Of a stretch of 64,000 bases of DNA, positions 345-48,952 are shown one piece after another. Location: positions 11,116 through 75,115 of the forward strand of contig JAVZBY010000004.1 of NCBI GenBank assembly GCA_038874655.1, in the 5' to 3' direction. Under the pieces are notes generated by a model. It searched no databases. It was not told the origin of the DNA and saw nothing but the letters and a program-made list of their open reading frames with translations. Each line of letters begins with the position of its first letter. Within the stretch, counting starts at the first letter, position 1. This DNA is from Candidatus Woesearchaeota archaeon (GTDB lineage Archaea > Nanobdellota > Nanobdellia > Woesearchaeales > GW2011-AR15). A program made the position numbers and the translations under genes.

Positions 345-1604
345 ATGAAAAAATTATTTGCAATTGTTTTGATGTTATCTTTAATTTTAGGTGCATGCAC
401 ACAATATGAGTATAAAGAAAATGTTTCTCAAACTAACAACCTTGAAAATCAAATCAATGAAAAAAATAATGAAATTACTGGAGAAGTTGTAGAAGTGCTT
501 AATGAAGAAAAAATAGAAAATGTAGAACAAAAAAACCAGACTAAACAAGAAAATAAAGAAAATGAAAAAGAAGAAAAAAACAATATGATTATTGCATATG
601 AAGGAGATTTAATTGATTTAAAACCATATGTATATGATGCTGATGGTGATGATATTAAAATTGGTTATAGCTTTCCTTTTGATGAAAATGGAAAATGGCA
701 AACCAAAAAAGGAGATGCTGGGTTTTATTCTGTAATAATAACTGCAACTGACAAAAAAAATTCATTAGTTATGAAACAAATGGTTATAAAAGTTTTAGTT
801 AAAAACAAAAGTCCTATAATTCAGATTGATGATGTTTTAGAATTTAACGAAGGAGATCTTATTGAATTAAAACCTCTTGTCTTTGATGAAGATGATAAAG
901 AAGTTTCTGTAAAATACACAGGTTGGATGACCTCAAACAAATATCAAACAACCTATGAAGACTCTGGTGAATATGAAGTAACAATAACTGCTGATGATGG
1001 CAAAGACCCTGTTGAAAAGAAAATAAGAATCATAGTAAAAAATGTTAATAGAGAACCAATTTTAGAATTAGAACAAGAAAATTACACAATAACAGAAGGT
1101 GATCTATTACAAGTGAAAGCAACTGCAAAAGATCCTGATAATGATAAAGTTGAATTAAGTTTTGGAAAGCCATTATCAGAAAGCGGGAAATGGCAAACCC
1201 AAAAAGGAGATGCTGGCAAATACTTAATAAAAGTTTCTGCAAATGATGGACAAAATGTTGTAAAAAAAGATGTTGAAGTTGAAGTATTAAAGAAAAATGA
1301 ACCACCTATAATAAAAAGTATTGAAGTAGTTCCTCAATTTGTAGAATTAAAACAACCTGGTGATGAAGTAAAAGTAACTATTAAAGTAAATGCCGAAGAC
1401 CCAGATAAAGATGAATTAACTATAACCTACTCTGGTGATATGGAATCAGAAGAAAAAGTCTTTAAATATGGCGAAAAAGGTGGCATAAAAAAAGTAAAAG
1501 TTAGTGTTAGTGATGGAAAAGAAAGTGTTTCAGAGGAAGTTTCTTTTGAAATGAATAATTGGCCATGTTTTGACTGCCAAAGCTTAATTAAAGCACAAAA
1601 TTAA
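345..1604 (+). CDS. Secreted lipoprotein with four tandem Ig-like (PKD/cadherin-like) repeat domains
   Basis: SD gggaggggtg 4 nt upstream of ATG. N-terminal signal peptide with lipobox LILGAC. A unit of about 95 aa is repeated four times, with recurring motifs EGDLIxLKP, GKWQTxKGDAG and ATD/SAND-DGK. Confidence 0.6.
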   Translation: MKKLFAIVLMLSLILGACTQYEYKENVSQTNNLENQINEKNNEITGEVVEVLNEEKIENVEQKNQTKQENKENEKEEKNNMIIAYEGDLIDLKPYVYDADGDDIKIGYSFPFDENGKWQTKKGDAGFYSVIITATDKKNSLVMKQMVIKVLVKNKSPIIQIDDVLEFNEGDLIELKPLVFDEDDKEVSVKYTGWMTSNKYQTTYEDSGEYEVTITADDGKDPVEKKIRIIVKNVNREPILELEQENYTITEGDLLQVKATAKDPDNDKVELSFGKPLSESGKWQTQKGDAGKYLIKVSANDGQNVVKKDVEVEVLKKNEPPIIKSIEVVPQFVELKQPGDEVKVTIKVNAEDPDKDELTITYSGDMESEEKVFKYGEKGGIKKVKVSVSDGKESVSEEVSFEMNNWPCFDCQSLIKAQN

Positions 1605-4522: not shown

Positions 4523-5134
4523 ATGAATAACACAAATAAATTAATTTTTTTTATTACATTATTTGTTTTAGCAAGTTGCACTTTAATGGAAACACCAAAA
4601 GATAACACACCAAGATTATTAAGTCAATGGGCTGTTTCTGCTACTGCATCTGACTCATATGGCGGTTCTGGGCAAAATATTGATGATCAAAGTGCTTATG
4701 CTGCTACTGGCAAACCAAATGTAAAAAATTGTGAAAACAGCAATTATGCATGGACAATCTCTAGAGAAAATGATGGAATTCATTGGATAGAATTAAATTA
4801 TGATATTCCTGTATATGTTAATAAAGTAAGAGTTTATGAAAACTTCAATCCTGGAAGTGTTATAAAAATAGAGTTAAAAAAAGATAATGGTTATGAAACA
4901 TTATGGCAAGGCACTTATAAAACAAAACAATGTCCTTATGTTTTAGAGAAAGAATATCGTAGTTTAGAAGGAAATATAACCAAAAATATAACTTCTTATA
5001 AAACAGACACAATAAGAATAACTGTTGATACAGATGTTCCTGGTTGGAATGAAATTGATGCTGTTGAATTAATTGGATATGAAAAAAAATTTACAATTCT
5101 TAATGGAACAATTGTTTTTGAAAACGAAGATTAA
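4523..5134 (+). CDS. Hypothetical secreted lipoprotein
   Basis: Signal peptide with lipobox LASC. No recognisable domain. Confidence 0.5.
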   Translation: MNNTNKLIFFITLFVLASCTLMETPKDNTPRLLSQWAVSATASDSYGGSGQNIDDQSAYAATGKPNVKNCENSNYAWTISRENDGIHWIELNYDIPVYVNKVRVYENFNPGSVIKIELKKDNGYETLWQGTYKTKQCPYVLEKEYRSLEGNITKNITSYKTDTIRITVDTDVPGWNEIDAVELIGYEKKFTILNGTIVFENED

Positions 5135-5175: not shown

Positions 5176-5844
5176 TTATTCCATATTTATACCAAATTCT
5201 TGTGGTTCTGCAGGTAATTCAAACTCTGAATCACTAACTTTATTGCTATATTCTATTGCTGTCATTTCTGTTTTACCTGCTGCAGATTCAACTTTTTGAT
5301 ACAATGGAACAAATTCATTAGAATAACATGTTTCTGTTTTTGTGCTTGACAATTCATAACCAAAGCATCTTGCCTTTACTCCTGCAATTGTCCTAGAAGG
5401 TAATTCAACAACATTATATTTTTGCCAATTATCTCTTAAATCCTCATCTGTTTTTATCATATCATTCTGCTGATTAAATTCATAGCAAATTGGCTCTTCT
5501 TCTGTAATACACATATAAGTTTTATCATTAACTCTATAAACACTGCTTTCTTTTGATACATACTTAAAATTTTTACCCTTAAACACTAAGGTTTGCTCTC
5601 TCCCAACATTTCCAAAATTATCACTAACAGAATAAACAACTTTATATTCTGGCATTTTTGGTATATTTGAAAAAAAATCTTTTATATTATTATTCTCATT
5701 TTTTGTTTCAACATTTGTTTGTTCTGTTGTTTTTACTTCTGTATTTAAATTAGTATCTAAGCTATTTAAATTTTGATCTTCACCTGTTCTTGTGCATGCA
5801 GAAAAAATAAGCAATGCAACAAGCATTATTAAAATTTTTTTCAT
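5176..5844 (-). CDS. Hypothetical secreted lipoprotein
   Basis: SD GGGGTGA upstream. Signal peptide with lipobox FSAC. Confidence 0.5.
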   Translation of the reverse strand: MKKILIMLVALLIFSACTRTGEDQNLNSLDTNLNTEVKTTEQTNVETKNENNNIKDFFSNIPKMPEYKVVYSVSDNFGNVGREQTLVFKGKNFKYVSKESSVYRVNDKTYMCITEEEPICYEFNQQNDMIKTDEDLRDNWQKYNVVELPSRTIAGVKARCFGYELSSTKTETCYSNEFVPLYQKVESAAGKTEMTAIEYSNKVSDSEFELPAEPQEFGINME

Positions 5845-15134: not shown

Positions 15135-15494
15135 ATGGCAAAATCCCAAAAACATAAAAAAGAAGAAAAAAAAATTGAAGAAAAAAAATCAGAAAATCAA
15201 AATCATGCTTTAAATGAACACTTACATTGTTGTTCTTTAAATCCAAGCAAATTAGGAATTTCTTTTGGTATTTTATTAGCATTAAAAACCTCTGTTTTAG
15301 TTATACTTAATTTACTATTTAATGGTTGGGGTAATGCTATAATCAACTTATTAAGCAATTTATTTTTAGGATATGAAGCCTCCTTAAAAGGTTTAATATT
15401 TGGTTTAATTTGGGGATTTTTTGATGGCTTTGTATTAGGTTATTTATTTGCAATAATCTACAATTTTGTCAGAAAACAAGAATGCTGTAAATAA
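15135..15494 (+). CDS. Small membrane protein (hypothetical)
   Basis: Strong SD. Two or three predicted TM helices. CC pairs near both termini. Confidence 0.5.
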   Translation: MAKSQKHKKEEKKIEEKKSENQNHALNEHLHCCSLNPSKLGISFGILLALKTSVLVILNLLFNGWGNAIINLLSNLFLGYEASLKGLIFGLIWGFFDGFVLGYLFAIIYNFVRKQECCK

Positions 15495-15534: not shown

Positions 15535-16056
15535 TTATTTTATCATAATTCTTAGTTTTGAAAAAAAATTTTTTTTATAAATTATATCAGAAAAAGTCCA
15601 TTTAAATTCTTTCCAATCATTATTTTCATAAACTAACTGCAAATCTGCATAAACACCTTTACTTAAATAAATTCTGTGTGCTCTTTCCTTAAAAGAAGCA
15701 AAGACAACAGCATTACTTTTAACATAACCAACATCTACATTAAATAATCTCTTATCATTGATTAAAAAACTTTTTTCAATATCATAACACATTAATTTTA
15801 ATTTGGGTAATTTTTCTATACCAAAACTTCCAAAAAAATCAAAACAAATGTATTTTTTTATTAAATTTTTACCAAATTCCTTCTCATAAAAATTAGTAAA
15901 ATCAAAATCAAAAAAACCATCTTCTAAAATAATATTTCCAAAATTTCTGTTTAAAGTTTCAATTAATAATCGATATTTTTCACTATTTAATAAAAATTTA
16001 GAAAACATTATTGAAATAACTAAATTTGCTTTTGGTTTTTCCTTTGGAACGGACAT
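15535..16056 (-). CDS. Hypothetical protein (possibly DUF4416-like)
   Basis: ORF only. The DFTNFYEKEFG block is reminiscent of DUF4416, but the assignment is uncertain. Confidence 0.35.
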   Translation of the reverse strand: MSVPKEKPKANLVISIMFSKFLLNSEKYRLLIETLNRNFGNIILEDGFFDFDFTNFYEKEFGKNLIKKYICFDFFGSFGIEKLPKLKLMCYDIEKSFLINDKRLFNVDVGYVKSNAVVFASFKERAHRIYLSKGVYADLQLVYENNDWKEFKWTFSDIIYKKNFFSKLRIMIK

Positions 16057-16166: not shown

Positions 16167-16661
16167 TCAAAATAAATCTTTCTTTTTTTTGAAAGACAAA
16201 TATAGAATAAAAATTAAGGAGATGGTAAGATAAGAATCTGCAAGATTAAAAACTGGCCAAAACCTAAAATCTATAAAATCAACAACATAACCTAAGAAAA
16301 TTCTATCTATTAAATTACCTAATATACCTGATAATAAAATTATTAAGGGTATCCTAAAAATATTTTGATTATAATTTAAAGAAAAAAATTTATGTAAAAA
16401 AAAAAGAAAAGCCACAATTGAGATTATAATAAAAAGTAAATTATTGTTTTTAAACATACCAAAAGAAACACCTGTATTTTCTAAATAAGTTATATTAAAA
16501 AATAAAAATTTATGACTCTCACTAATTAAAAAATTCTTTCTCACTAAATATTTAGAAATCTGGTCTAAAAAAATCAATAAAAAAAATAAAAAAAAATAAA
16601 AGAAATGATTTAAATTACACTTAAACCCATTCTTTAAAAGCAAAGAATTTTTTTTTTTCAT
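16167..16661 (-). CDS. lspA: Lipoprotein signal peptidase (signal peptidase II)
   Basis: All LspA blocks are present: DQISK, NTGVSFG, GNLIDR..GYVVDFIDF, FNLADS. Four TM helices. 164 aa. Confidence 0.7.
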   Translation of the reverse strand: MKKKNSLLLKNGFKCNLNHFFYFFLFFLLIFLDQISKYLVRKNFLISESHKFLFFNITYLENTGVSFGMFKNNNLLFIIISIVAFLFFLHKFFSLNYNQNIFRIPLIILLSGILGNLIDRIFLGYVVDFIDFRFWPVFNLADSYLTISLIFILYLSFKKKKDLF

Positions 16662-16682: not shown

Positions 16683-16868
16683 TTATTCTTCATTTTCAAA
16701 CAGACTCATATAGTTTTTAGCTTCGCTTTCATCATTAAAAACTTTTAGTATCTTTAAATTATCAAAATTAACACAACATTCATCATACTCTAAAAATTCT
16801 AGCTTCATTAGAACCATTTTTTTACAATTTAAACATTTTCCAACATAAAACTTTTCCATACATCTCAC
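16683..16868 (-). CDS. Small Cys-rich hypothetical protein
   Basis: 61 aa containing CLNC and CC. Probably a zinc-binding miniprotein. Confidence 0.3.
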   Translation of the reverse strand: MRCMEKFYVGKCLNCKKMVLMKLEFLEYDECCVNFDNLKILKVFNDESEAKNYMSLFENEE

Positions 16869-16887: not shown

Positions 16888-17853
16888 TTAAAGTTTAAAC
16901 TCTTTTTTTCCTAAATAAACATCATAAGCAAAATCTACTGATTTGTTTCCATAAGTTATTGAAGAGATTGCATTACACATTCTAATTGCTTCTTTTAATG
17001 TTTTTTGATGAATATTTCTTCCTGTTGCATTTCCGCTAGCCCCACTAATATGGATTTGCTCATATAATTCTTGTAAAAATAATTTTGGATCTTTTGAGGA
17101 ACCTCCTGCTGTAATTACTTTTGTTTTTCCTGCTGCTTTTATTGCCTCTTTAAATGACTCTGCTCTATCTTTTGAAGAAAAGCCGTCTTTATTAGGATAA
17201 TTTACTTTTACAAAATCACTTCCTAAACATAAGGCAACACCAGCTGCTCCTGCAATCAAATGCGGATCTTTTTCATCTTTAATTGCTTTTCCTCTCGGAT
17301 AAATCCATAAAATAGTAATTAAGCCATGTTGATGTGCTAATGAAACTAATCTTCCTGCTTCTCCAACCATTTCTGCTTCATATTCACTACCTAAAAAAAT
17401 AGTATAGCCAATTCCTACAATATTAACTCTTTTTTTTAAATCTAAAATGCTTTCAAAATCAACCAAAGATAAGCTTAAAGGATCCTTTTGTTTTGTTTTA
17501 ACAATATTAGTTTTTGAATTAACTTTAACAATATAATTAATCTTTGGATAATATCTAGCATATTTAGATATTAAACCAAATTGTGCTGCAAAAGCACCTA
17601 TTATTCCTTGAGAAGCAATTCTAAATAAATGCTCAGGATCATTATCTTCCTCAGGAATGAGAAAATCCTCATTAGTTTTTCCATTAAAGTCATCATTTAG
17701 ATGCTCAAATTTTTGGTCGCCTGCAAAAAGCATTAATCTATCTGTGTTTTTTGTTATTAAAGAATAATTTTTCAAATACTCTTTTTCTGCTTTTTTCGGA
17801 ACATCCATCGGAACAATATTACTTTTTTTTACCTTTTTCAAGATAATCACCAC
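16888..17853 (-). CDS. Class I aldolase of the DhnA/archaeal FBP aldolase family
   Basis: TIM-barrel aldolase blocks, including VKVNYP with a likely Schiff-base lysine, and GASG..GRN near the C-terminus. Confidence 0.55.
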   Translation of the reverse strand: MVIILKKVKKSNIVPMDVPKKAEKEYLKNYSLITKNTDRLMLFAGDQKFEHLNDDFNGKTNEDFLIPEEDNDPEHLFRIASQGIIGAFAAQFGLISKYARYYPKINYIVKVNSKTNIVKTKQKDPLSLSLVDFESILDLKKRVNIVGIGYTIFLGSEYEAEMVGEAGRLVSLAHQHGLITILWIYPRGKAIKDEKDPHLIAGAAGVALCLGSDFVKVNYPNKDGFSSKDRAESFKEAIKAAGKTKVITAGGSSKDPKLFLQELYEQIHISGASGNATGRNIHQKTLKEAIRMCNAISSITYGNKSVDFAYDVYLGKKEFKL

Positions 17854-21147: not shown

Positions 21148-22956
21148 TTGGATGAAAAATTGAATAAAAAAAAAGAAACTTCACTCTTGTATTTAGTTGG
21201 ATTTATATTTTTATTAGATATAAATATAGTTTTAGCACAATCATCTGGACAAAGTTTTGTTAGAGCATTAAATCCTTTCTGGAATTTAATTTCATATATA
21301 TTTAAAGATTTACTACAACCCTCTACAAGGTACATATTTTTTAAATTTTTAGTTTGGATGCTATTATGGATTTTTTTAATGCTACTAGCTCCAAAAGCAT
21401 TAGAATCTTTAAAAGCTGACAATGACACAGCAAAAAAACAAGCAAACATAATTACATTTATTCTAGCTTTAATAATGACAATTGGAATTCCTAATGCTGC
21501 ATTAGAGTTAATTTTTAGTTCTTATGCTTTTTTAGGTTTTCTTTTTATTATGTTTATAGGACCAGCACTTTTTATAGGTGGTAAAACGCCACAAAATAAC
21601 TTTGCTAGAGGAGGAATTTTTATATTAATTGGAATAATAATATATGCTTATGATAGTTTTGCTTCAAATTTAAGTGATATTTTTATCTTAGGAGCAACTT
21701 TATCTATAATATATGGGATAATAATGTGGATTAATGGCTTATCCATAGGTGGATCTTTAACAGGAATAAGTAAAAAAGAGCCCAGTAATCCAAAAGATCC
21801 AATAACAAATAAAGAAATAGAACAAGAAAAAGACTCTGAATTAAAAAAATTAAAACAAGAGATTAAAGCACTTTTTGAGTTAAATAGGGAATTTTCAAAA
21901 GATGTTGAGGTAATTCAAAATAATGTTTCAGATTTAAGAAAGAAAAATATATTATCATTAAAAAGAGAATTAAATCTAGAGCAAAAGAAACAAAGATTAA
22001 ATAATGTAGAAGCTCAATTTTCTGTTCCTTTAGAAAAGGTTAATCCTATTATTCAAATTATACAAAACATAAAACAAAATCCAAAATTTTCACAATTAGG
22101 CTTTTTTGACAAAAAAAAACCTATGTCCGGGTTTGATAATGTCGTAAAGTCATTTATAATTAATTATAAAATTCTTATTAGCTTATTAAGAGATTATGCA
22201 CTTTATAAAGGCGAGTTATTAAGTGAAAAAGAAGAAAATTTACATAACATATTAAAAGAACATATTGATAAATTAAAAAAAACTTTTGAGATTGTTGGAA
22301 AAACAGCTGATTCTGAAACATTAAAATTAGAAGCACAAATAAATAATTTAGAAAATGAGATTGTTGCGGCAATACAAAAAGGAAAAAAGCAGAAAAAAGA
22401 GAAATTGCTGAAATTAATAAGTGATTTAGAAAATGATTTCAATAATATGGACACAGAATTAAAAAATTATGGCTCTTTAATTGATAGTGAAATCAAAAAG
22501 ATTAATGAATATATTAATGCTGATGATTTAAGAAAAAACCAGATCATATCCGAAATAAAAAATAATTTAAGTAAATTCCAAAATGCTTTTAACTCTGGTT
22601 TGAGATATTTAAGAAATATGACAAGAAAAGGCATTAAAGAAGAAAAAAAATTTCATCAGAAAATTATCGAAATAAAAGATTATGCTAATTATTTAGAAAA
22701 TGATGATTTAAAAATTGAAAATGCTTACAACACTTGGATTGCATGGGTTAAAGAAATAGAAGAAGAGCTAAAAAAATTAGATGAAATAAATAAAAAAATT
22801 AAAACAATAAACTATGAAGCAGATCTTATAAATTTATTTAAGCAAGAAGAACAATTATTATCAAAATTTTATCAATCAATCCAAAAGTCAGAAAGTGTAT
22901 GCAAAGCATTATTAGAAGGCTATAGAAAATTAGCCAATGAAGTTCAAAATTTATAA
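21148..22956 (+). CDS. Signal peptide plus multi-TM N-domain plus long coiled-coil protein (paralogue 1)
   Basis: TTG start. Signal peptide ending VLAQSS. About 200 aa with four or five TM helices, then ~400 aa of coiled-coil-like K/E/N-rich heptads. The N-domain aligns to the next gene. Confidence 0.5.
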   Translation: MDEKLNKKKETSLLYLVGFIFLLDINIVLAQSSGQSFVRALNPFWNLISYIFKDLLQPSTRYIFFKFLVWMLLWIFLMLLAPKALESLKADNDTAKKQANIITFILALIMTIGIPNAALELIFSSYAFLGFLFIMFIGPALFIGGKTPQNNFARGGIFILIGIIIYAYDSFASNLSDIFILGATLSIIYGIIMWINGLSIGGSLTGISKKEPSNPKDPITNKEIEQEKDSELKKLKQEIKALFELNREFSKDVEVIQNNVSDLRKKNILSLKRELNLEQKKQRLNNVEAQFSVPLEKVNPIIQIIQNIKQNPKFSQLGFFDKKKPMSGFDNVVKSFIINYKILISLLRDYALYKGELLSEKEENLHNILKEHIDKLKKTFEIVGKTADSETLKLEAQINNLENEIVAAIQKGKKQKKEKLLKLISDLENDFNNMDTELKNYGSLIDSEIKKINEYINADDLRKNQIISEIKNNLSKFQNAFNSGLRYLRNMTRKGIKEEKKFHQKIIEIKDYANYLENDDLKIENAYNTWIAWVKEIEEELKKLDEINKKIKTINYEADLINLFKQEEQLLSKFYQSIQKSESVCKALLEGYRKLANEVQNL

Positions 22957-22976: not shown

Positions 22977-24548
22977 ATGCTAAAAGAACAAAAAAAGATT
23001 TTAAAATTTTCATTTTTATTATTGGTTGGTTTCTTAATTATAGATTTTGTCAGTGCTCAAACCACATATAGAGCATTAAAACCTTTTTGGGATTTTATTG
23101 CTTATATATTCAGTGTTTTACCTAGTGGCACAACAAAGTATGTCTTTTATAAATTTATTATTTGGATGTTATTAGCTTCTGTTTTAATATTACTAGTTCC
23201 AAATTCATTAGCTTTTTTGAGATCAGAAGATCCAACAGTAAAAAAGAATGCAAAAATTATTGCTTGGATTTTATCATTAATGATGTCAATTGGAATTCCA
23301 AATTCTATATTAGATTTAATTTTCAATTCTTATTCCCTTATTGGTGCATTTTTATTGTTAGCTGTTGGTCCTGCTTTAATATTTGCACTCACAAACAAAA
23401 GTAATAGAAGATTAAGAGGAATTGCTTTTTTAGTTTCTGGTGTTTTATTAATGATATTCGCTACTACAGGAACAGTTAATGAATGGCTAAATTTATGGGA
23501 TTTACTAGACTGGATTAATCTTGGTGGTTTCATAATGATGATTATAGGATTAGTAATGATAATACAAGGTGATGAAAAAACTATTACTAATGATGAACTA
23601 AATAGTTCTAATTCCTCAAATAATGATTATAATCAAAATCCAATTCAAAATCATGAAACATTTGAAAAAGAAAAAGCAAAAAACTCTTTGCATCTGATTG
23701 ATGAAATATTAAATGAGATTAATGAATTTAATAATAAATTAGTTGAGAAAATTAGCTTAATTGAAAATGAAATTAACGATTATAGAAATGAAATAAAAAT
23801 ATTAGAAGAATTACTCCAAAAAATAAAAGAATTAAAAGAAAGAATATCACATGTTTCAATTATAAATGATCACCTTTCTGATGAAAAAGCAATAAAGGGA
23901 TTGAAAGAAGAAATAGAAAATAAATTAAATTTAGGTTCTGGACACAATATAACAACTGCTATTAGAGATTTAAAAACATTAGAAAAACATTTATCAACAA
24001 TAGATCAACATATTGTTGAATTACAAAGAAAACAAAATACATTGATAACAAAATCTAAAAATAATTTATGGAATGTTGATAATTCATTAGAAGGACAAAC
24101 TTCAAATCAAGATTTAGCTAATCTAATACAAGAAACAAGACACTTAATTAGAGATATAGTATCAAAAATTGATCAAATAAAAAAAATAGAGCATTTGAAT
24201 GAAAGAGCAGAATCCCAAATAATAGAACAAAATAGAAATGAGATTATACAAGGGAGTAATATAGATAGTTTAATTAATGCTATAAAAACATTATGTGATG
24301 AAGTTATAAATAAGAAAAATAATAATAAATTAAATTCATTAAAAACAAATATAACCCATTTACTACATTTTTTAGAAACACAACCAAATCATAGTTCTCC
24401 TGGAGGTAAAATAGCACATAAATTAAGAATACATGAAACCTTACAACAAATATCAAGAAATATAAATGAAGAAGGTAAAATATCAGATGAAATAATAAAT
24501 GAACTAAATCAATTAAAGCAACAACTACAAGTAATTTCTAAGGAATAA
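22977..24548 (+). CDS. Signal peptide plus multi-TM N-domain plus long coiled-coil protein (paralogue 2)
   Basis: Signal peptide ending VSAQTT. The N-domain matches paralogue 1 (RALxPFW, KYxFxKFxxWMLL, MxIGIPNxxLxLIF, GPAL). Coiled-coil C-terminal region. Confidence 0.5.
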   Translation: MLKEQKKILKFSFLLLVGFLIIDFVSAQTTYRALKPFWDFIAYIFSVLPSGTTKYVFYKFIIWMLLASVLILLVPNSLAFLRSEDPTVKKNAKIIAWILSLMMSIGIPNSILDLIFNSYSLIGAFLLLAVGPALIFALTNKSNRRLRGIAFLVSGVLLMIFATTGTVNEWLNLWDLLDWINLGGFIMMIIGLVMIIQGDEKTITNDELNSSNSSNNDYNQNPIQNHETFEKEKAKNSLHLIDEILNEINEFNNKLVEKISLIENEINDYRNEIKILEELLQKIKELKERISHVSIINDHLSDEKAIKGLKEEIENKLNLGSGHNITTAIRDLKTLEKHLSTIDQHIVELQRKQNTLITKSKNNLWNVDNSLEGQTSNQDLANLIQETRHLIRDIVSKIDQIKKIEHLNERAESQIIEQNRNEIIQGSNIDSLINAIKTLCDEVINKKNNNKLNSLKTNITHLLHFLETQPNHSSPGGKIAHKLRIHETLQQISRNINEEGKISDEIINELNQLKQQLQVISKE

Positions 24549-25392: not shown

Positions 25393-26097
25393 TTATTTTT
25401 TATCTTTATTATTTTTCTTTTTAACTTCTCTTTTAATTTCTTTTTTAATAAAATTTACTTTATTAAACTCTTCTTTGCTTTTTTTATTCTTAATTAATTT
25501 TTCATCTAAACTCTCTTCATCATTAATCTCTTTATTCAATTTTTTTATATCCTTTTCAACATTTTCCAAAAATTTTTGCATTTCTTCATAGGATCTTGGC
25601 TCTAAATAAGAATACAAAAACCTTATAACAACTATCATAAAAAAGAATAATATTACAGCAAAAAAGACACTTAACAAATGAAAGAAGCTTTCATTATTTA
25701 ATAAATCACTATAAACTAAAACAATTGTTATATAAGTAAAAAAAGCAATAACAGATTTAGAAGACATCTTAAAAATTGTTTTTAATGGTAATTTATGGAA
25801 AAAATCATATACAGATACTATTAAAGTAAAAATTAAAAATATAAAAATAACTAATGCCTTTGCTAAATTTAAATCATAGTTTATTAAATATCTGATTAAA
25901 TCAAAATAAACAAAAATAAGAAAAATAGAGCTCTCTAAACTTTTATGATGCCCAAACCCTTCTCTTGGATATTTATAAAAATAGATTTCCATTAATGCAA
26001 TCGCAAAAAATAAAGGCAATAATATCCAAAGCATTTCTTTATAAATTAAAGGTGCATATAAAAATTCTAAAAAAGTACTAAACAAATCATTAAACAT
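25393..26097 (-). CDS. Hypothetical membrane protein with a charged C-terminal tail
   Basis: About six predicted TM helices followed by a K/E-rich tail. Confidence 0.4.
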   Translation of the reverse strand: MFNDLFSTFLEFLYAPLIYKEMLWILLPLFFAIALMEIYFYKYPREGFGHHKSLESSIFLIFVYFDLIRYLINYDLNLAKALVIFIFLIFTLIVSVYDFFHKLPLKTIFKMSSKSVIAFFTYITIVLVYSDLLNNESFFHLLSVFFAVILFFFMIVVIRFLYSYLEPRSYEEMQKFLENVEKDIKKLNKEINDEESLDEKLIKNKKSKEEFNKVNFIKKEIKREVKKKNNKDKK

Positions 26098-30654: not shown

Positions 30655-32232
30655 ATGTTAATGGCAAATTATTTTAAAAAATTTGTATCTTTTAAGATTA
30701 AAAGCAGAAATGTAAATTTATATTTTTCCATTCCAAAAAATAGTTCTGAATTTAATGAAGACTTACTAAATAAAGAATTTGAATTTTTTAAATCCATTTT
30801 ATTAAAACAGCATCCTTTTTTTCAAGATAATAAATTTAAAAATAATTTTGACTTAGCAACTTTGCCTAGAGATAATGAAGCTGAAGAAGAAGAAAGACTA
30901 TTAGCAAAGGATATTTTGCAACTAAAATTAAATTTTAAATATGTAAAAAATATAAATGAAATTAAAGCACCTTCAATAAAATATTTTGAAGAAAAAACTA
31001 TCATGCTTTTAGCACCTTTAATTGGACAAATATTAAAGAGTGATAATAATGTTATTCCTGATGGAGAAGGGGATTTCACAGTAAAAGTTAAAATTGGTAA
31101 AGCTATGGATTTAGGTGAAGAAAATTTAGCTATTGTTTATGAAACGCTCTCTGATTTAGAAACCTTATATCTAGGCTTTCATTATCAATTAATTGCAAGA
31201 TATCTAGTTTTTCCCTATTATCTTAGTGGTGAAAAAACATTTTTTAGTGCCTTTCCTATAAAATGTATAATACATGAGATTCAACATTATAAACAAATGA
31301 CTTTTACTAATTGGGAAAGAAAAGTAAAAAATGCCATAGAAGAAAAATTTACTACTCCTTCTAAATTAAGTCCAAATTCATTATTATTATTTTGGGCCTT
31401 ATGTGAATTATACAAAGAAGCTGAAGCATATTTCATGGATTCAAAAAAAAATCAAAGAAGAAAAATAGACATGAATTGGATCTATAATTTCAGAAAAAAT
31501 TTATTCACTATGGTCTCTCTTCCCAAAAATGAAAAAGAATTATGGGAATTTTATAACAAATATATCGATGAAAACACCTCTTTATATGTTAATGCTCTAT
31601 TAATGATGGCTACAATCTCTTTTGCTGAAGCAAAAAAAGATGGTCATCCTGAACAAATAATCTTATATAAAGATGTCAATCCAGAAATAAAAAAATTAGT
31701 TAATGAAATTGAAGTTATGATAAATGTTCTTTTAAATAATAATAGTGAGAATCTAAATCTTTTAAAAAATAAGATAATTGAATTATACAAATTACTAAAA
31801 CCTTACCTTCCTTATCTAATCGCTAACAAATTAAGAGAAAATATAAATAATCTCTATAATAATAATTTAACAATAATAAAAAAAGGATGCTTAATTATTA
31901 AAAATGAAGTTTTACCTTTTTATGATAGATTTGATTTGTCTAAATTAAATGAGATCATGACAAAAGAAAAAATATTTTATTATGGCCAAGTTCCTGAAAT
32001 TTATGTTAATAGAAGTTTTAATTTTGTAAAAAATTATGTTACATCTACTGGTAAATTATCTCCTGCAACACATTTCGGTTTTATAAAGAAATATGAAGAT
32101 GCATGCAACATTTTAAGAATAGACAGAAACAATAGAGTAATTGATTTATTTTTTTATAAAGAATTAAAAAAATTGACTCTCGAAAAAGATAAAAAAATGT
32201 CAGAACAAAAAGAGGCATATTTATTAGGATAA
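30655..32232 (+). CDS. Hypothetical protein with an HExxH motif
   Basis: 525 aa with no signal peptide. The only candidate catalytic motif is IIHEIQH. Confidence 0.35.
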   Translation: MLMANYFKKFVSFKIKSRNVNLYFSIPKNSSEFNEDLLNKEFEFFKSILLKQHPFFQDNKFKNNFDLATLPRDNEAEEEERLLAKDILQLKLNFKYVKNINEIKAPSIKYFEEKTIMLLAPLIGQILKSDNNVIPDGEGDFTVKVKIGKAMDLGEENLAIVYETLSDLETLYLGFHYQLIARYLVFPYYLSGEKTFFSAFPIKCIIHEIQHYKQMTFTNWERKVKNAIEEKFTTPSKLSPNSLLLFWALCELYKEAEAYFMDSKKNQRRKIDMNWIYNFRKNLFTMVSLPKNEKELWEFYNKYIDENTSLYVNALLMMATISFAEAKKDGHPEQIILYKDVNPEIKKLVNEIEVMINVLLNNNSENLNLLKNKIIELYKLLKPYLPYLIANKLRENINNLYNNNLTIIKKGCLIIKNEVLPFYDRFDLSKLNEIMTKEKIFYYGQVPEIYVNRSFNFVKNYVTSTGKLSPATHFGFIKKYEDACNILRIDRNNRVIDLFFYKELKKLTLEKDKKMSEQKEAYLLG

Positions 32233-32265
32233 TAATAAAATACAAAAATTATAAAATTCTTTAAT

Positions 32266-33648
32266 TTAATTTTTTAGTTCATCTTCAAATATCTTATATA
32301 ATCTCTTCTTGAATTTCAAAGGTATTGTTCTAGAATCATGAATTCCGTAATATTTCTTTTTTAATTCCTCTGCTCTTGGTTCTACACTTTTTAATAATTC
32401 TCTTTTAAATTTATCTATTAGTTCTCCTTTAAAACCATTCTTATAAGCCAAGTAAAATGCATATAATTGCTCTTCTGAACCACAACCTGAAGCATCATAA
32501 CCGACAGAACAACCTTCTTTTTTTTCAACACCAAAACAAGAAAATAAATGCTCGTTTTCTTTAACTAACATGTCAGTCCTAAACCCAATACTTTTCGGAT
32601 CTAGATTATTAGCTAACATAAAAATATAAATTCTAGCACACTTAGAGCAATGCTCACACCAATAATGCTTTTTTCCATATTCATTTTCATCTGGAAAACA
32701 AGACATTTGATATTTACCAATTTCTTTATATCTCTTGTGAAGAATTTTCATAATAGCTAACTCATACAAAGGTTCAATAAAACTTGACACATTCATTCCT
32801 GTTAATAAAAAAGCCATATTATCCATTTCTTTTACCCAAAAACTTGTTTGATCATATACAGGATAACTTAAATATCCATCTTTATTAATATAAGTATCAT
32901 CGCAACTTTTTTCATCACCAAATAAAATATATTTTGCTTTTTCATAATAAGCTATGGGCATTATATCAAAGAAAAGTTCTGTCATTAAATGACCATATCC
33001 TAACTCTGTTCTAGGTAATTTCCAAAACCTATAATCATGAATTACACCTGTACTATTTTCAAAAGTATAAACCTTGACATTAAATTCTTTGGAAAATTTT
33101 TTAATTAATTCCTTTTTATATTCATTTTCTAATTTAACTGCATTATCTAACATAAAAACAGGAATTGGCTCTAAACCTAATTCTTTTGCTAGTGCAAATG
33201 TCAATAAACTATCTTTACCAAAAGACATATTTACTATTACTTTTTCTTTCAGATCAATCTTTTCTTTTGGATACTTTATTTCATAATTAGCAAAAGAAAC
33301 CTTCAAATTCAAAAAATTTTTAATTTGTAATTCTGTTGAAACATTATCTACATCAGCACAAAAACTTAAATTGTTTAAATGTGCATTAAATATTTGTTGT
33401 TTAAATAAAGGATAAGAAGTTTTAAATTCAATCTCTTTTAAATTTGAATTAGAAAATTTCCAATTTTGACTTAACATCTGTGGTAAGTGCAAAACTTTTA
33501 GATATGCATAATTATCAATAAAAATATCTTTGAGATATTCTGGATAATTATCCCATATATCTTTAGAATAAACTAAAAAAAAATCTTTTTCATCTATTGT
33601 TAATTTTAAACCATTATCTGTTTTTTTACAATCAACTTTCATTTTCAC
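32266..33648 (-). CDS. PP-loop ATP pyrophosphatase superfamily protein (PAPS-reductase/QueC-like) with C-x15-C-x2-C-x2-C motif, paralogue A
   Basis: MSFGKDSLLTFALA P-loop of the SGGKDS type. YQMSC..WCEHCSKCARIY cysteine cluster. Aligns along its whole length with the ORF at 35786..37183. Confidence 0.5.
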   Translation of the reverse strand: MKMKVDCKKTDNGLKLTIDEKDFFLVYSKDIWDNYPEYLKDIFIDNYAYLKVLHLPQMLSQNWKFSNSNLKEIEFKTSYPLFKQQIFNAHLNNLSFCADVDNVSTELQIKNFLNLKVSFANYEIKYPKEKIDLKEKVIVNMSFGKDSLLTFALAKELGLEPIPVFMLDNAVKLENEYKKELIKKFSKEFNVKVYTFENSTGVIHDYRFWKLPRTELGYGHLMTELFFDIMPIAYYEKAKYILFGDEKSCDDTYINKDGYLSYPVYDQTSFWVKEMDNMAFLLTGMNVSSFIEPLYELAIMKILHKRYKEIGKYQMSCFPDENEYGKKHYWCEHCSKCARIYIFMLANNLDPKSIGFRTDMLVKENEHLFSCFGVEKKEGCSVGYDASGCGSEEQLYAFYLAYKNGFKGELIDKFKRELLKSVEPRAEELKKKYYGIHDSRTIPLKFKKRLYKIFEDELKN

Positions 33649-33704
33649 AACACTCTATACATTGCTTATCTTTATCATTATTTTTATTTCTTAAATTCTA
33701 ATTA

Positions 33705-34787
33705 CTACCTTCTCAACAAATTATCATTTCTTAACTCAGCACTTAATTCTTTTAATAATCCATATCTTTTCATTGCTTCATATAGAATGCTTAAAATAAT
33801 ATCATCATAACTCATTCCTGCTGTAAAACATGCTTTTGGAAATCTTGAATTTTCCAAAGGATCTGGCATCAATCCAGGCAATGCATTAATCTCTAAAACA
33901 TTCGGAATTCCATTTTTATCCAATCTTATATCTAATCTTGCTAAATCCACACATCCTAAAACTTTAAATGTTTTCAAAGAAACAGCTTTTATCATTCTTT
34001 CTAATTCTTTTGAAATTTGTGCTGGACAAACTACAGGATCAACTGGATTATTTGGATTATCCCAAATCCATTTAACCTCATAAGAATCAAACTTATTAAC
34101 ATGTTCTGGTAAATAATCAAAAGTCACTTCTACAATTGGCATTACTTTTGGAGGATTATTTCCCAATATTGCTACTGTAAATTCTCTACCCTCTAAATAT
34201 TCTTCAACTAAAGCTTCTTGATGATAATTATTTATAACAAATCTTAATTGTCTTCTTAATTCCTCTTCGTTCTTTACTAATGAATCATTTCTTATTCCTT
34301 TTGATGAACCTTCTGCATTTGGTTTTACAAAAAGAGGAAAATTTAACTCTGGATTTAATTTTTGATTCCAATTACTAAAAATCTGAAATTTTGGTGTTGG
34401 AACTCCATAATATTGTAAAATTTCCTTTGTTCTTCTTTTGTCCAAAGTTAAAGCTTGAGTAAAAACACCACTTCCAGTATAAGGTATTCCGAGCATATCT
34501 AAAATAGCAGGAACTTGACTTTCTCGAGAACCTCCATTTAAACCTTCAGCTATATTAAAAACAAAATCATAATTACCATATTTAATTTTTTCAAAAAAAT
34601 CTTCATTTGCCTCAACAATTTCAGCAATAAAACCCTTTTTTTCTAATGCATTTTTAATTGCAGTTGGAACTGCCAAATTATCATACTCAGCATAATAATC
34701 TTCTGGCATATTTGCAGGTGGCTCTTTTTTTAAATTAAAAGCAACTGCAATTCTTGGTATAGGGTTTTTAAAAACAAACTTTTTCAT
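33705..34787 (-). CDS. ddl: D-alanine--D-alanine ligase family ATP-grasp enzyme
   Basis: NIAEGLNGGSRESQVPAILDMLGIPYTGSGV..LDKRRTKEIL parallels the DdlB block [43 protein letters not shown]. C-terminal LEINALPGL ATP-grasp motif. Confidence 0.75.
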   Translation of the reverse strand: MKKFVFKNPIPRIAVAFNLKKEPPANMPEDYYAEYDNLAVPTAIKNALEKKGFIAEIVEANEDFFEKIKYGNYDFVFNIAEGLNGGSRESQVPAILDMLGIPYTGSGVFTQALTLDKRRTKEILQYYGVPTPKFQIFSNWNQKLNPELNFPLFVKPNAEGSSKGIRNDSLVKNEEELRRQLRFVINNYHQEALVEEYLEGREFTVAILGNNPPKVMPIVEVTFDYLPEHVNKFDSYEVKWIWDNPNNPVDPVVCPAQISKELERMIKAVSLKTFKVLGCVDLARLDIRLDKNGIPNVLEINALPGLMPDPLENSRFPKACFTAGMSYDDIILSILYEAMKRYGLLKELSAELRNDNLLRR

Positions 34788-34812
34788 TTATATAGACCTC
34801 CATTTTTATTTT

Positions 34813-35154: not shown

Positions 35155-35342
35155 TTAGCTTTTATCACTTCCTTTTTTATTTTTATATTTTGAGTTTATC
35201 TTTGAAATTTTCACAATAGTTATATTTCAAAAAATTATTTTTAACAAAAAAATAAAAGAAAAAGTGGTATATAAATTTATTCATTTTTTTTATCACTTAG
35301 CAAAAAAAATTATTTCTTTCATTAATCTAAAATTGTAAAAAT

Positions 35343-35543: not shown

Positions 35544-35547
35544 TTTA

Positions 35548-35553
35548 ACCTCC
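35548..35553 (-). promoter_or_regulatory. Shine-Dalgarno GGAGGT for the acidic peptide gene
   Basis: Minus strand reads ggaggt-taaa-ATG, identical to the RBS context at 15123. Confidence 0.55.
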
Positions 35554-37183: not shown

Positions 37184-37276
37184 TAATCTAAAAATCAACT
37201 AAAAAAACTTGAAAAAGCATAATTACTTAAAAATTACACAAAAAGAGATATAAAGAACTACCTTTTTTTTATATTA

Positions 37277-46747: not shown

Positions 46748-48952
46748 ATGAAAAATAAATTTATGAAAACAACATTACTAGGATTATTTTTAATTTTTTT
46801 AGTATTTAGCTTAATAAGTTGTACTGAAATAAATTTAAATAAACCTGGGCAGAATACCAATCAAAATAATAACAATTTAAAATTTGACTCAGGAGAATTA
46901 AAAAAATTCAATTCAAAGCAAGAAATTATTGAATTCCTAAATAAGAATCAAATTGCCAGTTATGGGCTATATGCTACTAATTTTAGAACAGCTACTATGG
47001 AAACAATGGCAAAGTCAACTGATTCTTCAATAATGTCTAGTGTTTCACAAGGGGCTTCTGATTATAGCACTACAAACATACAAATACAAGGTGTTGATGA
47101 AGCTGATTTTATAAAAAACGATAACAAATATATTTATTTAATAAGTGGAAACAAATTAGTTATTATAGATGCTTATCCTGCTGAAAATGCAAAAATTCTC
47201 TCTGAGACATATATAGACGGAAATCCAAGAGAATTATTCTTAAATGGAAACAAACTTATTGTATTTACAGAAACAAATGAAGAAGTTTATACTTTTATGC
47301 AATATGAAATAATTCCAGTGCCTATTTATAAACAAAAAACACATGTTTTAATTTTTGACATTAGTGATAGAGAAAAACCAAAAAAAATTAGAGATTATGA
47401 TGTAAAAGGATATTATCTTACATCAAGAATGATTGATAACTATGTTTACATAATAGCACAAGATTATGTTTATTACTATAATAATTATATTGATATGCCT
47501 GTTATTAGAGAAACAAATTCAAAAATTGCAATAAATCCAAACATATATTATATTGATGAGCCTGACAACAACTATAATTTTAACACAATATTATCAATTG
47601 ACTTAAACAATCTTGATTCTGAAGATAGCATAAAAGCAGAGACATTTATGATGGGTTATTCTAATGTAATATTTGTTAGTGAAAACAACATTTACATATC
47701 ATATATGAAAAATAATCCAATTATATGGGGAAGATGGAATCCTTACTATAATAACTATAATGAATACCTAAAACAAAGATTTTATGATGTAATTGTTCCA
47801 TTATTACCAACAGAAACAAAGGAAAAAATAAAAGAAATAGAAAGCAGCAATTTAAAAGATAATGAAAAATGGGAAAAAATTGCAAATGAAATTGAAGAAA
47901 TGTATAATAAAATGTCAAAATCAGAAAAAACTGAATTTATGGAAAAAGTAGAGGAAGCAATAACACAATATGAATTAAAAAGAGAAGAAGAGTTGAAAAG
48001 AACAATCATTCATAAGATACAAATAAAAGATGGAAATTTAAAATATATAGCAAAAGGTGAAGTAAAAGGATATTTATTAAATCAATTTTCAATGGATGAA
48101 CATAATGAAAATTTAAGAGTTGCAACAACATTTGATGCATGGACATCTGGGAAATCAATTACTTACAATAATATCTATGTATTAAATAAAGATATGAAAG
48201 TAATTGGAAAATTAGAGAAAATTGCTCCTGATGAAAGAATTTATTCAACAAGATTTTTAGGAGATAGATTATACATGGTAACTTTCCAAAGAATTGATCC
48301 ATTTTTTGTAATTGACTTATCAAATCCAGAAAAACCAGAAATCTTAGGTGAATTAAAAATCCCTGGATTTTCAGATTACTTACATCCTTATGATGAAAAT
48401 ACAATAATTGGCTTAGGTAAAGACACAAAAGAAAATGAATGGAATACTATTTCAACTAATGGAATTAAATTAGCATTATTTGATGTTAAAGATGTTAATA
48501 ATCCAAAGCTTATTGACCAATATATAATTGGAAAAGAAGGAACAGACTCAGAAGCATTATACAATCATAAGGCATTTTTATTCAGCAAAGATAAAAACTT
48601 ACTAGTAATTCCAGTAAGAGAAACAAAAGGAAAAGAGATATATGATTCAAGATGGGGTTTTTATAAACAAAAAGTATGGCAAGGTGCTTATGTATTTGAT
48701 ATCACAAAACAAGGATTTAAATTAAAAGGAAAAGTAAGTCATGCTGAAACAGAAGAATACCCCTATTGGTATTATGGCAGTCCAAATGCTATAAAGAGAT
48801 CTTTATTTATGGATGATGTTTTATATACTATCTCTCAGAAAAAAATAGAGATGAATAATTTAGATGACTTAGAAACAATAAATAGTATAACTCTTCCTTA
48901 TTCCGAGGTATATTATCCAAATCCATATAAAGGAGGAGTTGCAATAGAATAA
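46748..48952 (+). CDS. Secreted lipoprotein with beta-propeller domain (Beta_propel-like)
   Basis: SD GGTGA 5 nt before ATG 46748. Lipobox LISC. The GVDEADFIKNDNKYIY block is typical of the secreted beta-propeller family. Confidence 0.5.
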   Translation: MKNKFMKTTLLGLFLIFLVFSLISCTEINLNKPGQNTNQNNNNLKFDSGELKKFNSKQEIIEFLNKNQIASYGLYATNFRTATMETMAKSTDSSIMSSVSQGASDYSTTNIQIQGVDEADFIKNDNKYIYLISGNKLVIIDAYPAENAKILSETYIDGNPRELFLNGNKLIVFTETNEEVYTFMQYEIIPVPIYKQKTHVLIFDISDREKPKKIRDYDVKGYYLTSRMIDNYVYIIAQDYVYYYNNYIDMPVIRETNSKIAINPNIYYIDEPDNNYNFNTILSIDLNNLDSEDSIKAETFMMGYSNVIFVSENNIYISYMKNNPIIWGRWNPYYNNYNEYLKQRFYDVIVPLLPTETKEKIKEIESSNLKDNEKWEKIANEIEEMYNKMSKSEKTEFMEKVEEAITQYELKREEELKRTIIHKIQIKDGNLKYIAKGEVKGYLLNQFSMDEHNENLRVATTFDAWTSGKSITYNNIYVLNKDMKVIGKLEKIAPDERIYSTRFLGDRLYMVTFQRIDPFFVIDLSNPEKPEILGELKIPGFSDYLHPYDENTIIGLGKDTKENEWNTISTNGIKLALFDVKDVNNPKLIDQYIIGKEGTDSEALYNHKAFLFSKDKNLLVIPVRETKGKEIYDSRWGFYKQKVWQGAYVFDITKQGFKLKGKVSHAETEEYPYWYYGSPNAIKRSLFMDDVLYTISQKKIEMNNLDDLETINSITLPYSEVYYPNPYKGGVAIE

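What the first reader, a model, noticed from the sequence alone, without database searches (positions are those of the whole stretch)
16167..16661. Bacterial-type lipoprotein signal peptidase (LspA) co-occurring with several lipobox proteins in an archaeal context
The 164-aa ORF carries every conserved LspA block (DQxSK, NxGxxFG, GNLIDR, VVDFIDF, FNxADS). The window also encodes at least four secreted proteins with L-x-x-C lipoboxes at 345, 4523, 5176 and 46748. LspA homologues are scarce in archaea, where lipobox processing is generally attributed to other enzymes. A complete Lsp plus its substrates suggests an acquired bacterial-style lipoprotein maturation route. Lgt was not seen in this window.
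Basis: partly seen in the sequence, partly recalled or inferred. Interest (0 to 1): 0.5.

Follow-up and report, generated by a model that had tools for sequence, protein, structure and literature searches.

The report
Bacterial-type lipoprotein signal peptidase in archaeon
The gene is an intact bacterial-type lipoprotein signal peptidase (LspA) in a tiny DPANN archaeon, and related archaea also carry the partner enzyme Lgt, although the archaeal lipoprotein literature says archaea have neither.

Summary
Window 16167-16661 (minus strand) encodes a 164-aa canonical LspA. It passes the Pfam and TIGRFAM cut-offs. It keeps both catalytic Asp (D119, D142) and the other family-invariant residues. Its predicted fold matches solved LspA structures at TM 0.75-0.82.

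The contig is clearly archaeal (TFB, aEF-1alpha, L7Ae, S6e, L15e, Nre, TFS), with 25% GC. Its best-named relatives are Woesearchaeota/Nanoarchaeia. All four lipobox N-termini are real. About 118 of 120 homologues of one substrate keep a Cys after the signal-peptide core (111/120 match the lipobox pattern).

LspA is not peculiar to this genome. It sits in conserved archaeal synteny in at least 18 independent contigs, which points to an old acquisition inherited vertically.

No Lgt is in the window, nor within 10 kb of lspA in 17 other archaeal loci examined first. However, one archaeal contig (found as L151, re-read as L173) carries a canonical Lgt 4.3 kb from lspA. That Lgt seeded a coherent Woesearchaeota/Nanoarchaeota clade, and one MAG holds both genes on separate contigs.

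Both genes are auto-annotated in GenBank, but a 2025 paper states that no archaeal Lgt/Lsp homologues are known. Verdict: new member of a known kind, moderate interest.

The parts
16167..16661 (-). lspA: lipoprotein signal peptidase (signal peptidase II, peptidase family A8), 164 aa, four TM helices, catalytic D119 and D142
   Evidence: Pfam PF01252 at 115.9 bits. TIGR00077 at 97.6 bits, above the 73.95 cut-off. PDB LspA hits 6ryo, 5dir and 9emz. Invariant residues in 69 homologues and in 87 archaeal plus bacterial sequences. Four hydrophobic segments. AF2 pLDDT 90.5. Foldseek TM 0.75-0.82 to 5dir/6ryo only.
16683..16868 (-). Conserved 61-aa Cys-rich small ORF (C12, C15, C31, C32 invariant) directly upstream of lspA. 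Probably co-transcribed; function unknown.
   Evidence: It is 53-63% identical to ORFs at the same position (overlapping the lspA start) in L002 and L004, and is also found in L010 and L103. No Pfam or NCBIfam hit.
16888..17853 (-). DeoC/LacD-family class I aldolase, first gene of the same-strand run aldolase - small ORF - lspA. It is a synteny marker, not a functional part.
   Evidence: Pfam PF01791 E=2e-47. The same arrangement occurs in L002, L004, L010 and L103.
46748..48952 (+). Predicted lipoprotein substrate: beta-propeller domain protein with signal peptide ...FLVFSLIS|C
   Evidence: Pfam PF09826 E=1.4e-162. Of 120 homologues, 111 keep a relaxed lipobox, and most of the rest keep [GAS]-C after the h-region. 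The named ones are Woesearchaeota/Nanoarchaeia.
345..1604 (+). Predicted lipoprotein substrate: Big_9/PKD/cadherin-like surface protein, signal peptide ...SLILGA|C
   Evidence: Sequence. Pfam Big_9, PKD and Cadherin_4.
4523..5134 (+). Predicted lipoprotein substrate, 203 aa, no known family, signal peptide ...LFVLAS|C
   Evidence: Sequence and strict lipobox rule. No Pfam or NCBIfam hit.
5176..5844 (-). Predicted lipoprotein substrate, 222 aa, no known family, signal peptide ...ALLIFSA|C (F at -3)
   Evidence: Sequence and relaxed lipobox rule. Its N-terminus weakly matches an S. aureus lipoprotein-family model, NF047408, E=2.7e-5.

Best explanation
The ORF is a working LspA, a four-helix membrane aspartyl protease. 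In this DPANN archaeon (Woesearchaeota/Nanoarchaeia type) it removes the signal peptide of lipid-modified prolipoproteins by cutting just before the lipobox cysteine. The mature protein stays anchored by its lipidated N-terminal Cys on the outer face of the cell membrane.

The gene is not a recent import. A bacterial lspA entered an ancestor of this archaeal lineage and has been inherited since, in archaeal synteny next to eIF-1A or an aldolase. The same lineage also carries a canonical Lgt, unlinked to lspA and usually in an operon with an uncharacterised roughly 260-aa membrane protein. The route is therefore the bacterial two-step one: Lgt puts a glyceryl-lipid on the Cys, then LspA cleaves.

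Shown here: family membership, catalytic residues, fold, archaeal host, conserved synteny, conserved lipoboxes, and Lgt in related archaeal genomes.

Inferred: enzymatic activity, that this genome's own Lgt lies outside the window, the identity of the lipid donor, and Sec export of the substrates.
For: - LspA identity. Every residue that is at least 90% conserved in 69 bacterial relatives is equally conserved in 18 archaeal sequences, and there are no archaeal-specific substitutions. The AF2 model matches only LspA structures.
- Archaeal host.
- Lineage-wide and vertical. Archaeal contexts appear. The arrangement S8e..HhH-GPD-p138-LspA-p200-eIF-1A, or aldolase-cys61-LspA-eIF-1A, recurs across contigs of 25-54% GC. 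Fifteen of 18 archaeal LspA have an archaeal nearest neighbour. The largest mostly-archaeal clade has 8 members, against a label-permutation maximum of 5.
- Substrates.
- Lgt in the lineage. L151/L173 has Lgt and LspA 4.3 kb apart beside eIF-1A and the A-type ATPase subunit I. The 120 closest Lgt are 55-70% identical and all named ones are archaeal. All 12 E. coli Lgt key residues checked are kept in 114-120 of 120. GCA_030651135.1 holds Lgt next to S10, aEF-1alpha, Rpb6 and exosome genes, and holds LspA on another contig.
Against: - No Lgt is present in the 64-kb window. At the S10/aEF-1alpha position where one relative has lgt, the window has a different gene.
- No Lgt lies within about 10 kb of lspA in the 17 other archaeal loci examined first, whereas 27 of 69 bacterial relatives have lgt immediately downstream (Fisher p=0.001). 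Co-occurrence in this exact genome is therefore unproven.
- No member of the window's own LspA subclade (window, L002, L004, L010, L103) was shown to have Lgt.
- No biochemical data exist.
- Archaeal membranes normally lack phosphatidylglycerol esters, so the lipid donor for Lgt is unclear.
- The NJ tree on 150 columns does not recover archaeal monophyly (0% bootstrap), so several transfers cannot be excluded.
Confidence: 0.8

Rival explanations
1. Hybrid pathway. This genome (or its subclade) has LspA but no Lgt. The lipobox Cys is lipidated with an archaeal lipid by an AliA-type or unknown archaeal enzyme, and the bacterial-type LspA cleaves these archaeol-modified precursors.
For: No Lgt is found in the window, or near lspA in 17 other archaeal loci. 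No Lgt has been shown for the window's own LspA subclade. AliA (arCOG02177) is reported to be present in DPANN with gaps, and the archaeal signal peptidase II is unidentified (PMC12462473).
Against: Related archaea with the same lspA synteny do carry a canonical, highly conserved Lgt. Archaeal LspA shows no lineage-specific changes that would suggest a new lipid substrate. No AliA candidate could be identified in the window, because no AliA sequence or profile was available. The only weak lead, 25393-26097 with DUF2070 at 21.8 bits against a cut-off of 30, has no shown link to AliA.
Confidence: 0.13
2. The archaeal LspA has been retained for another role, such as cleaving non-lipidated peptides or conferring tolerance to LspA-targeting antibiotics from neighbours, and is not the housekeeping lipoprotein peptidase.
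For: Some bacteria keep extra lspA paralogues for resistance (my own knowledge, not tested here). The gene is unlinked to lgt in archaea.
Against: There is a single copy per locus. The full set of catalytic and substrate-binding residues is kept. Conserved lipobox substrates occur in the same genomes. A canonical Lgt occurs in the same lineage.
Confidence: 0.05
3. Artefact: a bacterial gene on a chimeric or mis-binned contig.
For: DUF4416 and a holin-like 2-TM gene of bacterial or phage flavour lie just downstream of lspA.
Against: Archaeal genes flank lspA on both sides within 3 kb (aldolase with archaeal synteny, FtsZ, L11). GC is a uniform 25%. An independent Logan contig has the same gene order. 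At least 18 independent archaeal contigs carry lspA in conserved archaeal synteny.
Confidence: 0.02

Closest known systems
Bacterial LspA / signal peptidase II (MEROPS family A8; structures 5DIR from P. aeruginosa and 6RYO/6RYP from S. aureus)
   Same: Length is about 160 aa with four TM helices plus a beta-cradle. Both catalytic Asp and every family-invariant residue are present. Sequence identity to the solved enzymes is 30-32% and TM-score is 0.75-0.82.
   Different: The host is an archaeon. The gene context is archaeal (aldolase, eIF-1A) rather than the bacterial ileS-lspA(-lgt)-rluD arrangement seen in L012 and 26 other bacterial loci. The lipid on its substrate is unknown.
LspA of Omnitrophota, Elusimicrobiota, Dehalococcoidia and Planctomycetota MAGs (the closest bacterial sequences)
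   Same: They are 40-46% identical to the window protein, about the same as many archaeal homologues.
   Different: In 27 of 69 of these bacterial loci lgt directly follows lspA, which is never seen in the 18 archaeal loci. Archaeal sequences mostly cluster with each other.
Haloferax volcanii AliA/AliB archaeal lipoprotein lipidation system (Nat Commun 2025, PMC12462473)
   Same: It deals with the same kind of substrate: lipobox proteins anchored through a thioether-linked lipid on Cys+1. DPANN were predicted there to be rich in lipoproteins.
   Different: AliA/AliB are not Lgt or LspA homologues and add archaeol. Their downstream signal peptidase is unknown. That paper states that no archaeal Lgt or Lsp homologues have been identified, which the present data contradict for Woesearchaeota/Nanoarchaeia.

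Membership tests
LspA / signal peptidase II (Pfam PF01252, TIGR00077, MEROPS A8) | Profile match above the curated thresholds over the full length | tested here: met
   PF01252 at 115.9 bits against 25, covering profile positions 2-141 of 142. TIGR00077 equivalog at 97.6 bits against 73.95.
LspA / signal peptidase II (Pfam PF01252, TIGR00077, MEROPS A8) | Catalytic aspartate dyad in the GNxxDR and FNxADS motifs | tested here: met
   D119 and D142 are invariant in 69 homologues and in 18 archaeal plus 69 bacterial sequences. They align to the S. aureus and P. aeruginosa motifs.
LspA / signal peptidase II (Pfam PF01252, TIGR00077, MEROPS A8) | Other family-invariant residues (DQxxK, NxGxxF, G..GN..DR, V.DF, P.FN.AD) | tested here: met
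   D33, K37, N62, G64, G112, G115, N116, R120, D128, P136, F138, N139 and A141 are all present and invariant.
LspA / signal peptidase II (Pfam PF01252, TIGR00077, MEROPS A8) | Four transmembrane helices with an extracytoplasmic beta-cradle; LspA fold | tested here: met
   Four hydrophobic segments. The AF2 model has helices 17-43, 74-93, 97-123 and 140-159 and strands 49-62 and 126-131, with pLDDT 90.5. Foldseek hits with E<=0.001 are to LspA only, at TM 0.75-0.82 and rmsd 1.9-2.9 A.
LspA / signal peptidase II (Pfam PF01252, TIGR00077, MEROPS A8) | Cleaves lipid-modified prolipoproteins before Cys+1; inhibited by globomycin | not testable with these tools
   This needs biochemistry or complementation.
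Bacterial-type Lgt-LspA lipoprotein maturation pathway | Lipobox-bearing substrates encoded in the genome | tested here: met
   There are four in the window. The lipobox Cys is conserved in about 118 of 120 homologues of the beta-propeller protein.
Bacterial-type Lgt-LspA lipoprotein maturation pathway | Lgt (PF01790) in the same genome | tested here: inconclusive
   None is found in the 64-kb window, and the rest of the genome is not available. Lgt is present in related archaea: L151/L173 on the same contig as LspA, GCA_030651135.1 in the same MAG, and a 120-member archaeal Lgt clade with all catalytic residues.
Bacterial-type Lgt-LspA lipoprotein maturation pathway | Phosphatidylglycerol-type lipid donor in the membrane | not testable with these tools
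   The only hint is a PlsY (G3P acyltransferase) gene two genes from lgt in L171. No lipid-synthesis gene was seen in the window.
Archaeal AliA/AliB pathway (arCOG02177/02178) | Membership of a window protein in arCOG02177/02178 | not testable with these tools
   No AliA sequence or profile could be obtained. The multi-TM proteins of the window gave no relevant Pfam or NCBIfam hit.

The most novel reading that the evidence does not exclude
A whole DPANN lineage (Woesearchaeota/Nanoarchaeia) runs the complete bacterial Lgt-LspA lipoprotein pathway rather than, or beside, the archaeal AliA route. This would explain the lipoprotein-rich archaeal genomes reported to lack AliA/AliB.

It would also imply one of two things. 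Either these archaea hold bacterial-type glycerol-3-phosphate ester phospholipids in their membrane (PlsY lies beside lgt in one MAG), or canonical Lgt and LspA accept archaeal ether lipids. In both cases the 'lipid divide' would be crossed at the level of protein anchors. A conserved, uncharacterised membrane protein of about 260 aa, co-operonic with archaeal lgt, could be a lineage-specific adaptor.
Probability: 0.35. Interest if true: 0.7.

Novelty: new member of a known kind. Interest (0 to 1): 0.5.

Why it matters
Work on archaeal lipoproteins currently states that archaea have no Lgt or Lsp homologues, and that the archaeal lipoprotein signal peptidase is still to be found (PMC12462473).

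The data here show that one large, lipoprotein-rich archaeal lineage has canonical versions of both enzymes. They are old, conserved and embedded in archaeal gene neighbourhoods.

This gives three things:
- A ready explanation for some lipoprotein-rich genomes reported to lack AliA.
- A testable natural case of bacterial lipoprotein enzymes working in an archaeal membrane.
- A probe for what lipids these uncultured episymbionts actually have.

It does not solve the signal peptidase question for Euryarchaeota. The genes are also already auto-annotated in GenBank. The advance is therefore recognition and context, not a new kind of enzyme.

Tried and rejected
- **Incomplete or hybrid pathway.** Lgt was searched with E. 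coli Lgt (phmmer) and a 28-sequence profile (filters off) in the window and in 17 other archaeal lspA loci. None was found, while 27 bacterial loci served as positive controls. For a while this favoured an incomplete or hybrid pathway. It was overturned when a metagenome scan produced L151, with Lgt on an archaeal lspA contig.
- **AliA/AliB.** No sequence, Pfam name or supplement was obtainable. The weak DUF2070 match of 25393-26097 could not be tied to AliA and was dropped.
- **Archaeal-specific substitutions in LspA** that might indicate a different lipid substrate: none found.
- **Phylogeny.** NJ with 200 bootstraps on 150 columns supports small archaeal groups (window+L002+L004+L010 at 64%). 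It cannot test a single origin, since all-archaea monophyly is 0%. No ML program was available.
- **L012** (Elusimicrobiota-labelled, close to an archaeal LspA, with adjacent Lgt) was checked as a possible mislabelled archaeon. It is bacterial: Rex, IleS-LspA-Lgt-RluD, complex I.
- **Lipobox density.** The rule-based scan found 5 lipobox ORFs in 326 kb of archaeal loci (window included), against 19 in 1,017 kb of bacterial loci (1.5 against 1.9 per 100 kb). Outside the window only one archaeal locus had a hit, so the window's four are a local enrichment on small numbers.
- **Same-sample Lgt.** The most AT-rich archaeal Lgt (P0258) was looked up in case it came from the same run as the window's lspA contig. 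It comes from a different run.
- **Literature.** Searches for DPANN or Woesearchaeota combined with LspA, signal peptidase II or Lgt found only the Pohlschroder-group papers and reviews stating absence.
- **RNA genes.** Rfam found no RNA-family match and ARAGORN found one tRNA-Val (tac) gene at 40889-40963 (minus strand), not relevant to the finding.

Full report
**1. The observation**

Window 16167-16661 holds a complete 164-aa ORF on the minus strand.
- It matches Pfam Peptidase_A8 (PF01252) at E=2.2e-33 and 115.9 bits, almost end to end.
- It exceeds the curated cut-off of the NCBIfam/TIGRFAM lspA equivalog (97.6 against 73.95 bits).
- Its best solved-structure relatives are the S. aureus and P. 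aeruginosa LspA enzymes (E=1.4e-18 and 2e-13). GNLIDR and FNLADS align to their catalytic motifs.
- In an alignment of 69 homologues the invariant columns are D33, K37, N62, G64, G112, G115, N116, D119, R120, D128, P136, F138, N139, A141 and D142. D119 and D142 are the catalytic pair.
- Hydropathy gives four membrane segments.
- An AlphaFold2 model (pLDDT 90.5) has four long helices plus a small sheet. In the PDB it matches only LspA, at TM 0.75-0.82 and rmsd 1.9-2.9 A.

**2. The host is archaeal**

The window is 25% GC throughout. It encodes the following archaeal-type proteins:
- TFB, L15e, S6e, L7Ae and an eEF1A-type elongation factor
- Rpb4, TFS, Nre, PAC2, ZPR1, DUF655 and NFACT
- SepF and FtsZ

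Within 3 kb lspA is flanked by an aldolase, FtsZ and L11. An independent Logan contig has the same local gene order. Named close homologues of LspA and of the beta-propeller lipoprotein are from 'Candidatus Woesearchaeota' or 'Nanoarchaeia'. A chimera is very unlikely.

**3. The substrates**

The four N-termini cited are real signal peptides ending in a lipobox: LGAC, LASC, FSAC (minus strand, F at -3) and LISC. A rule-based six-frame scan found only these four plus one internal false start.

For the beta-propeller protein (PF09826), 111 of 120 homologues match a relaxed lipobox. Most of the remaining nine still have [GAS]-C after the hydrophobic core. The flanking sequence varies freely. The Cys is therefore under selection, and these are true lipoprotein precursors.

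**4. LspA is a lineage trait**

Among the 120 best database hits (40-67% identity), 11 of the 15 that carry a name are archaeal. Six long contigs carrying such homologues are plainly archaeal, with TFIIE, eIF-1A, S8e, LSM, S17e, Alba, Hjc and an S-layer protein.

A scan of GTDB species genomes returned 11 more archaeal-titled loci among the best 80. A JGI metagenome scan added further contigs with the same archaeal neighbours (L093, L098, L142, L145, L151).

Two recurrent neighbourhoods appear:
- S8e ... HhH-GPD - p138 - LspA - p200 - eIF-1A.
- In the window's own subclade (window, L002, L004, L010, L103): aldolase - 61-aa Cys-rich ORF - LspA, followed by eIF-1A in L002, L004 and L010.

Loci titled 'Methanosarcinales' or 'Methanobacteriota' share this synteny and are probably mislabelled. 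These contigs range from 25 to 54% GC, so the arrangement is old.

Sequence clustering agrees:
- Fifteen of 18 archaeal sequences have an archaeal nearest neighbour, although they make up only 21% of the set.
- The largest clade that is at least 80% archaeal has 8 members, against a label-permutation maximum of 5.
- Full archaeal monophyly is not recovered on 150 columns, so the number of transfers is open.

The shared eIF-1A adjacency across LspA subclades favours one early insertion. The archaeal enzymes show no lineage-specific substitutions. Every residue conserved in bacteria is conserved in them.

**5. Where is Lgt?**

E. coli Lgt and a profile built from it detect lgt immediately downstream of lspA in 27 of 69 bacterial loci. 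They detect it in none of 18 archaeal loci, and nowhere in the window (Fisher p=0.001). At that point the pathway looked incomplete.

The metagenome scan changed this.
- Contig L151 has the LspA - p200 - eIF-1A synteny and also a 256-aa Lgt 4.3 kb upstream. L151 is identical to part of a 97-kb contig of GCA_019322805.1, L173, which also carries A-type ATPase subunit I.
- With that Lgt as seed, the 120 best homologues are 55-70% identical. Every named one is 'prolipoprotein diacylglyceryl transferase' from Woesearchaeota or Nanoarchaeota.
- All twelve E. coli Lgt residues checked (Y26, H103, R143, N146, E151, G154, H196, Y201, Y235, R239, E243, R246) are kept in 114-120 of the 120.
- This clade is at most 38% identical to the bacterial lspA-linked Lgt.
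- One member lies in GCA_030651135.1 beside S10, aEF-1alpha, Rpb6 and exosome genes. That is the same MAG that carries LspA on another contig.

So this archaeal lineage has both enzymes, unlinked. In four archaeal contigs lgt is preceded by, and overlaps, a conserved polytopic membrane ORF of about 260 aa with no known family. In one of them a PlsY gene lies two genes away.

**6. Mechanism**

The most likely sequence of events is as follows.
- Prolipoproteins are exported (inferred).
- Lgt, encoded elsewhere in the genome, attaches a glyceryl lipid to the lipobox Cys. This is inferred from relatives.
- LspA (D119/D142) cleaves before the modified Cys, inferred by strong homology.
- The products are surface-anchored proteins such as the beta-propeller protein and an Ig/PKD/cadherin-like protein.

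Two things remain open: whether this very genome has Lgt, and what the lipid donor is in an archaeal membrane. The main rival is a hybrid route, in which an archaeal lipidation enzyme feeds LspA. It cannot be excluded for the window's subclade, but it is less likely given the conserved archaeal Lgt clade.

**7. Comparison with what is known**

The protein is a member of the LspA family by every testable criterion. The pathway is the bacterial one in an archaeal host.

The current archaeal lipoprotein literature states that no archaeal Lgt or Lsp homologues have been identified. It also says the archaeal signal peptidase II is unknown, and notes lipoprotein-rich genomes that lack AliA/AliB (PMC12462473). 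I found no open-access paper reporting these genes in DPANN. GenBank auto-annotation does name them.

**8. Verdict**

This is an ordinary enzyme in an unexpected but consistent host: a new member of a known kind. It is a useful correction to a standing statement in the field, and it raises a testable question about membrane lipids in DPANN archaea. Interest 0.5.

Noticed in passing
window 16683-16868 (-): A 61-aa Cys-rich ORF with four invariant Cys, probably a zinc ribbon and with no known family. It is conserved directly upstream of, or overlapping, lspA in the window's subclade (L002, L004, L010, L103). It may be co-translated with lspA or belong with the aldolase.
   Followed up: partly
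window 15135-15494 (+) and 15535-16056 (-): Just downstream of lspA lie a 119-aa two-TM protein and a bacterial-type DUF4416 protein. The 2-TM protein scores 69.5 bits on the NCBIfam 'bacteriophage holin' model (cut-off 70). DUF4416 scores E=7.5e-41. They occupy the position that eIF-1A holds in related archaeal loci. DUF4416 is also next to lspA in L103.
   Followed up: partly
L171 7416-8186, L173 9226-9999, L177 5208-6014, L178 5199-6014: An uncharacterised polytopic membrane protein of about 260 aa, ending in NR[VI]YF, overlaps the start of archaeal lgt in four contigs (29-37% identity). It is a candidate lineage-specific partner of Lgt. No homologue is present in the window.
   Followed up: partly
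L171 6774-7232 (-): A PlsY-type glycerol-3-phosphate acyltransferase (PF02660) lies two genes from lgt in a Woesearchaeota MAG. This hints at bacterial-type ester phospholipid synthesis in an archaeon.
   Followed up: no
window 30655-40810: A gene cluster containing three paralogous unknown proteins (30655 +, 32266 -, 35786 +), a D-Ala-D-Ala-ligase-like ATP-grasp enzyme (33705-34787 -), a peptidase C45/AAT-family protein (37277-38290 +) and an ABC-2 exporter (38327-40810 -). It may be a small-molecule or peptide modification and export cluster.
   Followed up: no
window 21148-22956 and 22977-24548 (+): Tandem paralogues (E about 1e-40 to each other). Each has a cleavable-looking non-lipobox signal peptide, five further TM segments and a large soluble domain. 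No family match.
   Followed up: no
L005 9548-9964 and homologues; L005 10445-11047 and homologues: In most other archaeal lspA loci the gene is flanked by two conserved proteins. One is a disordered protein with a conserved C-terminal coiled coil (p138). The other is a 4-TM protein with a C-terminal Cys/His domain (p200). Neither has a known function.
   Followed up: partly
L011, L025, L034, L071 (GTDB genome contigs): Records titled 'uncultured Methanosarcinales archaeon' or 'Methanobacteriota archaeon' share the DPANN S8e/HhH-GPD/p138/LspA/eIF-1A synteny. Their taxonomic labels are probably wrong.
   Followed up: partly
window 62689-63231 (-): A protein with an archaellin/type IV pilin N-terminal domain (TIGR02537, 32.4 bits). 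It is a class III signal peptide substrate, showing a second, archaeal-type secretion-processing route in the same window.
   Followed up: no
L162 8293-9237 (-): An Lgt that scores higher on the archaeal-clade profile than on the bacterial one (204 against 156 bits). It lies about 800 bp from, and divergent to, an lspA on a 16-kb JGI contig of undetermined domain.
   Followed up: no
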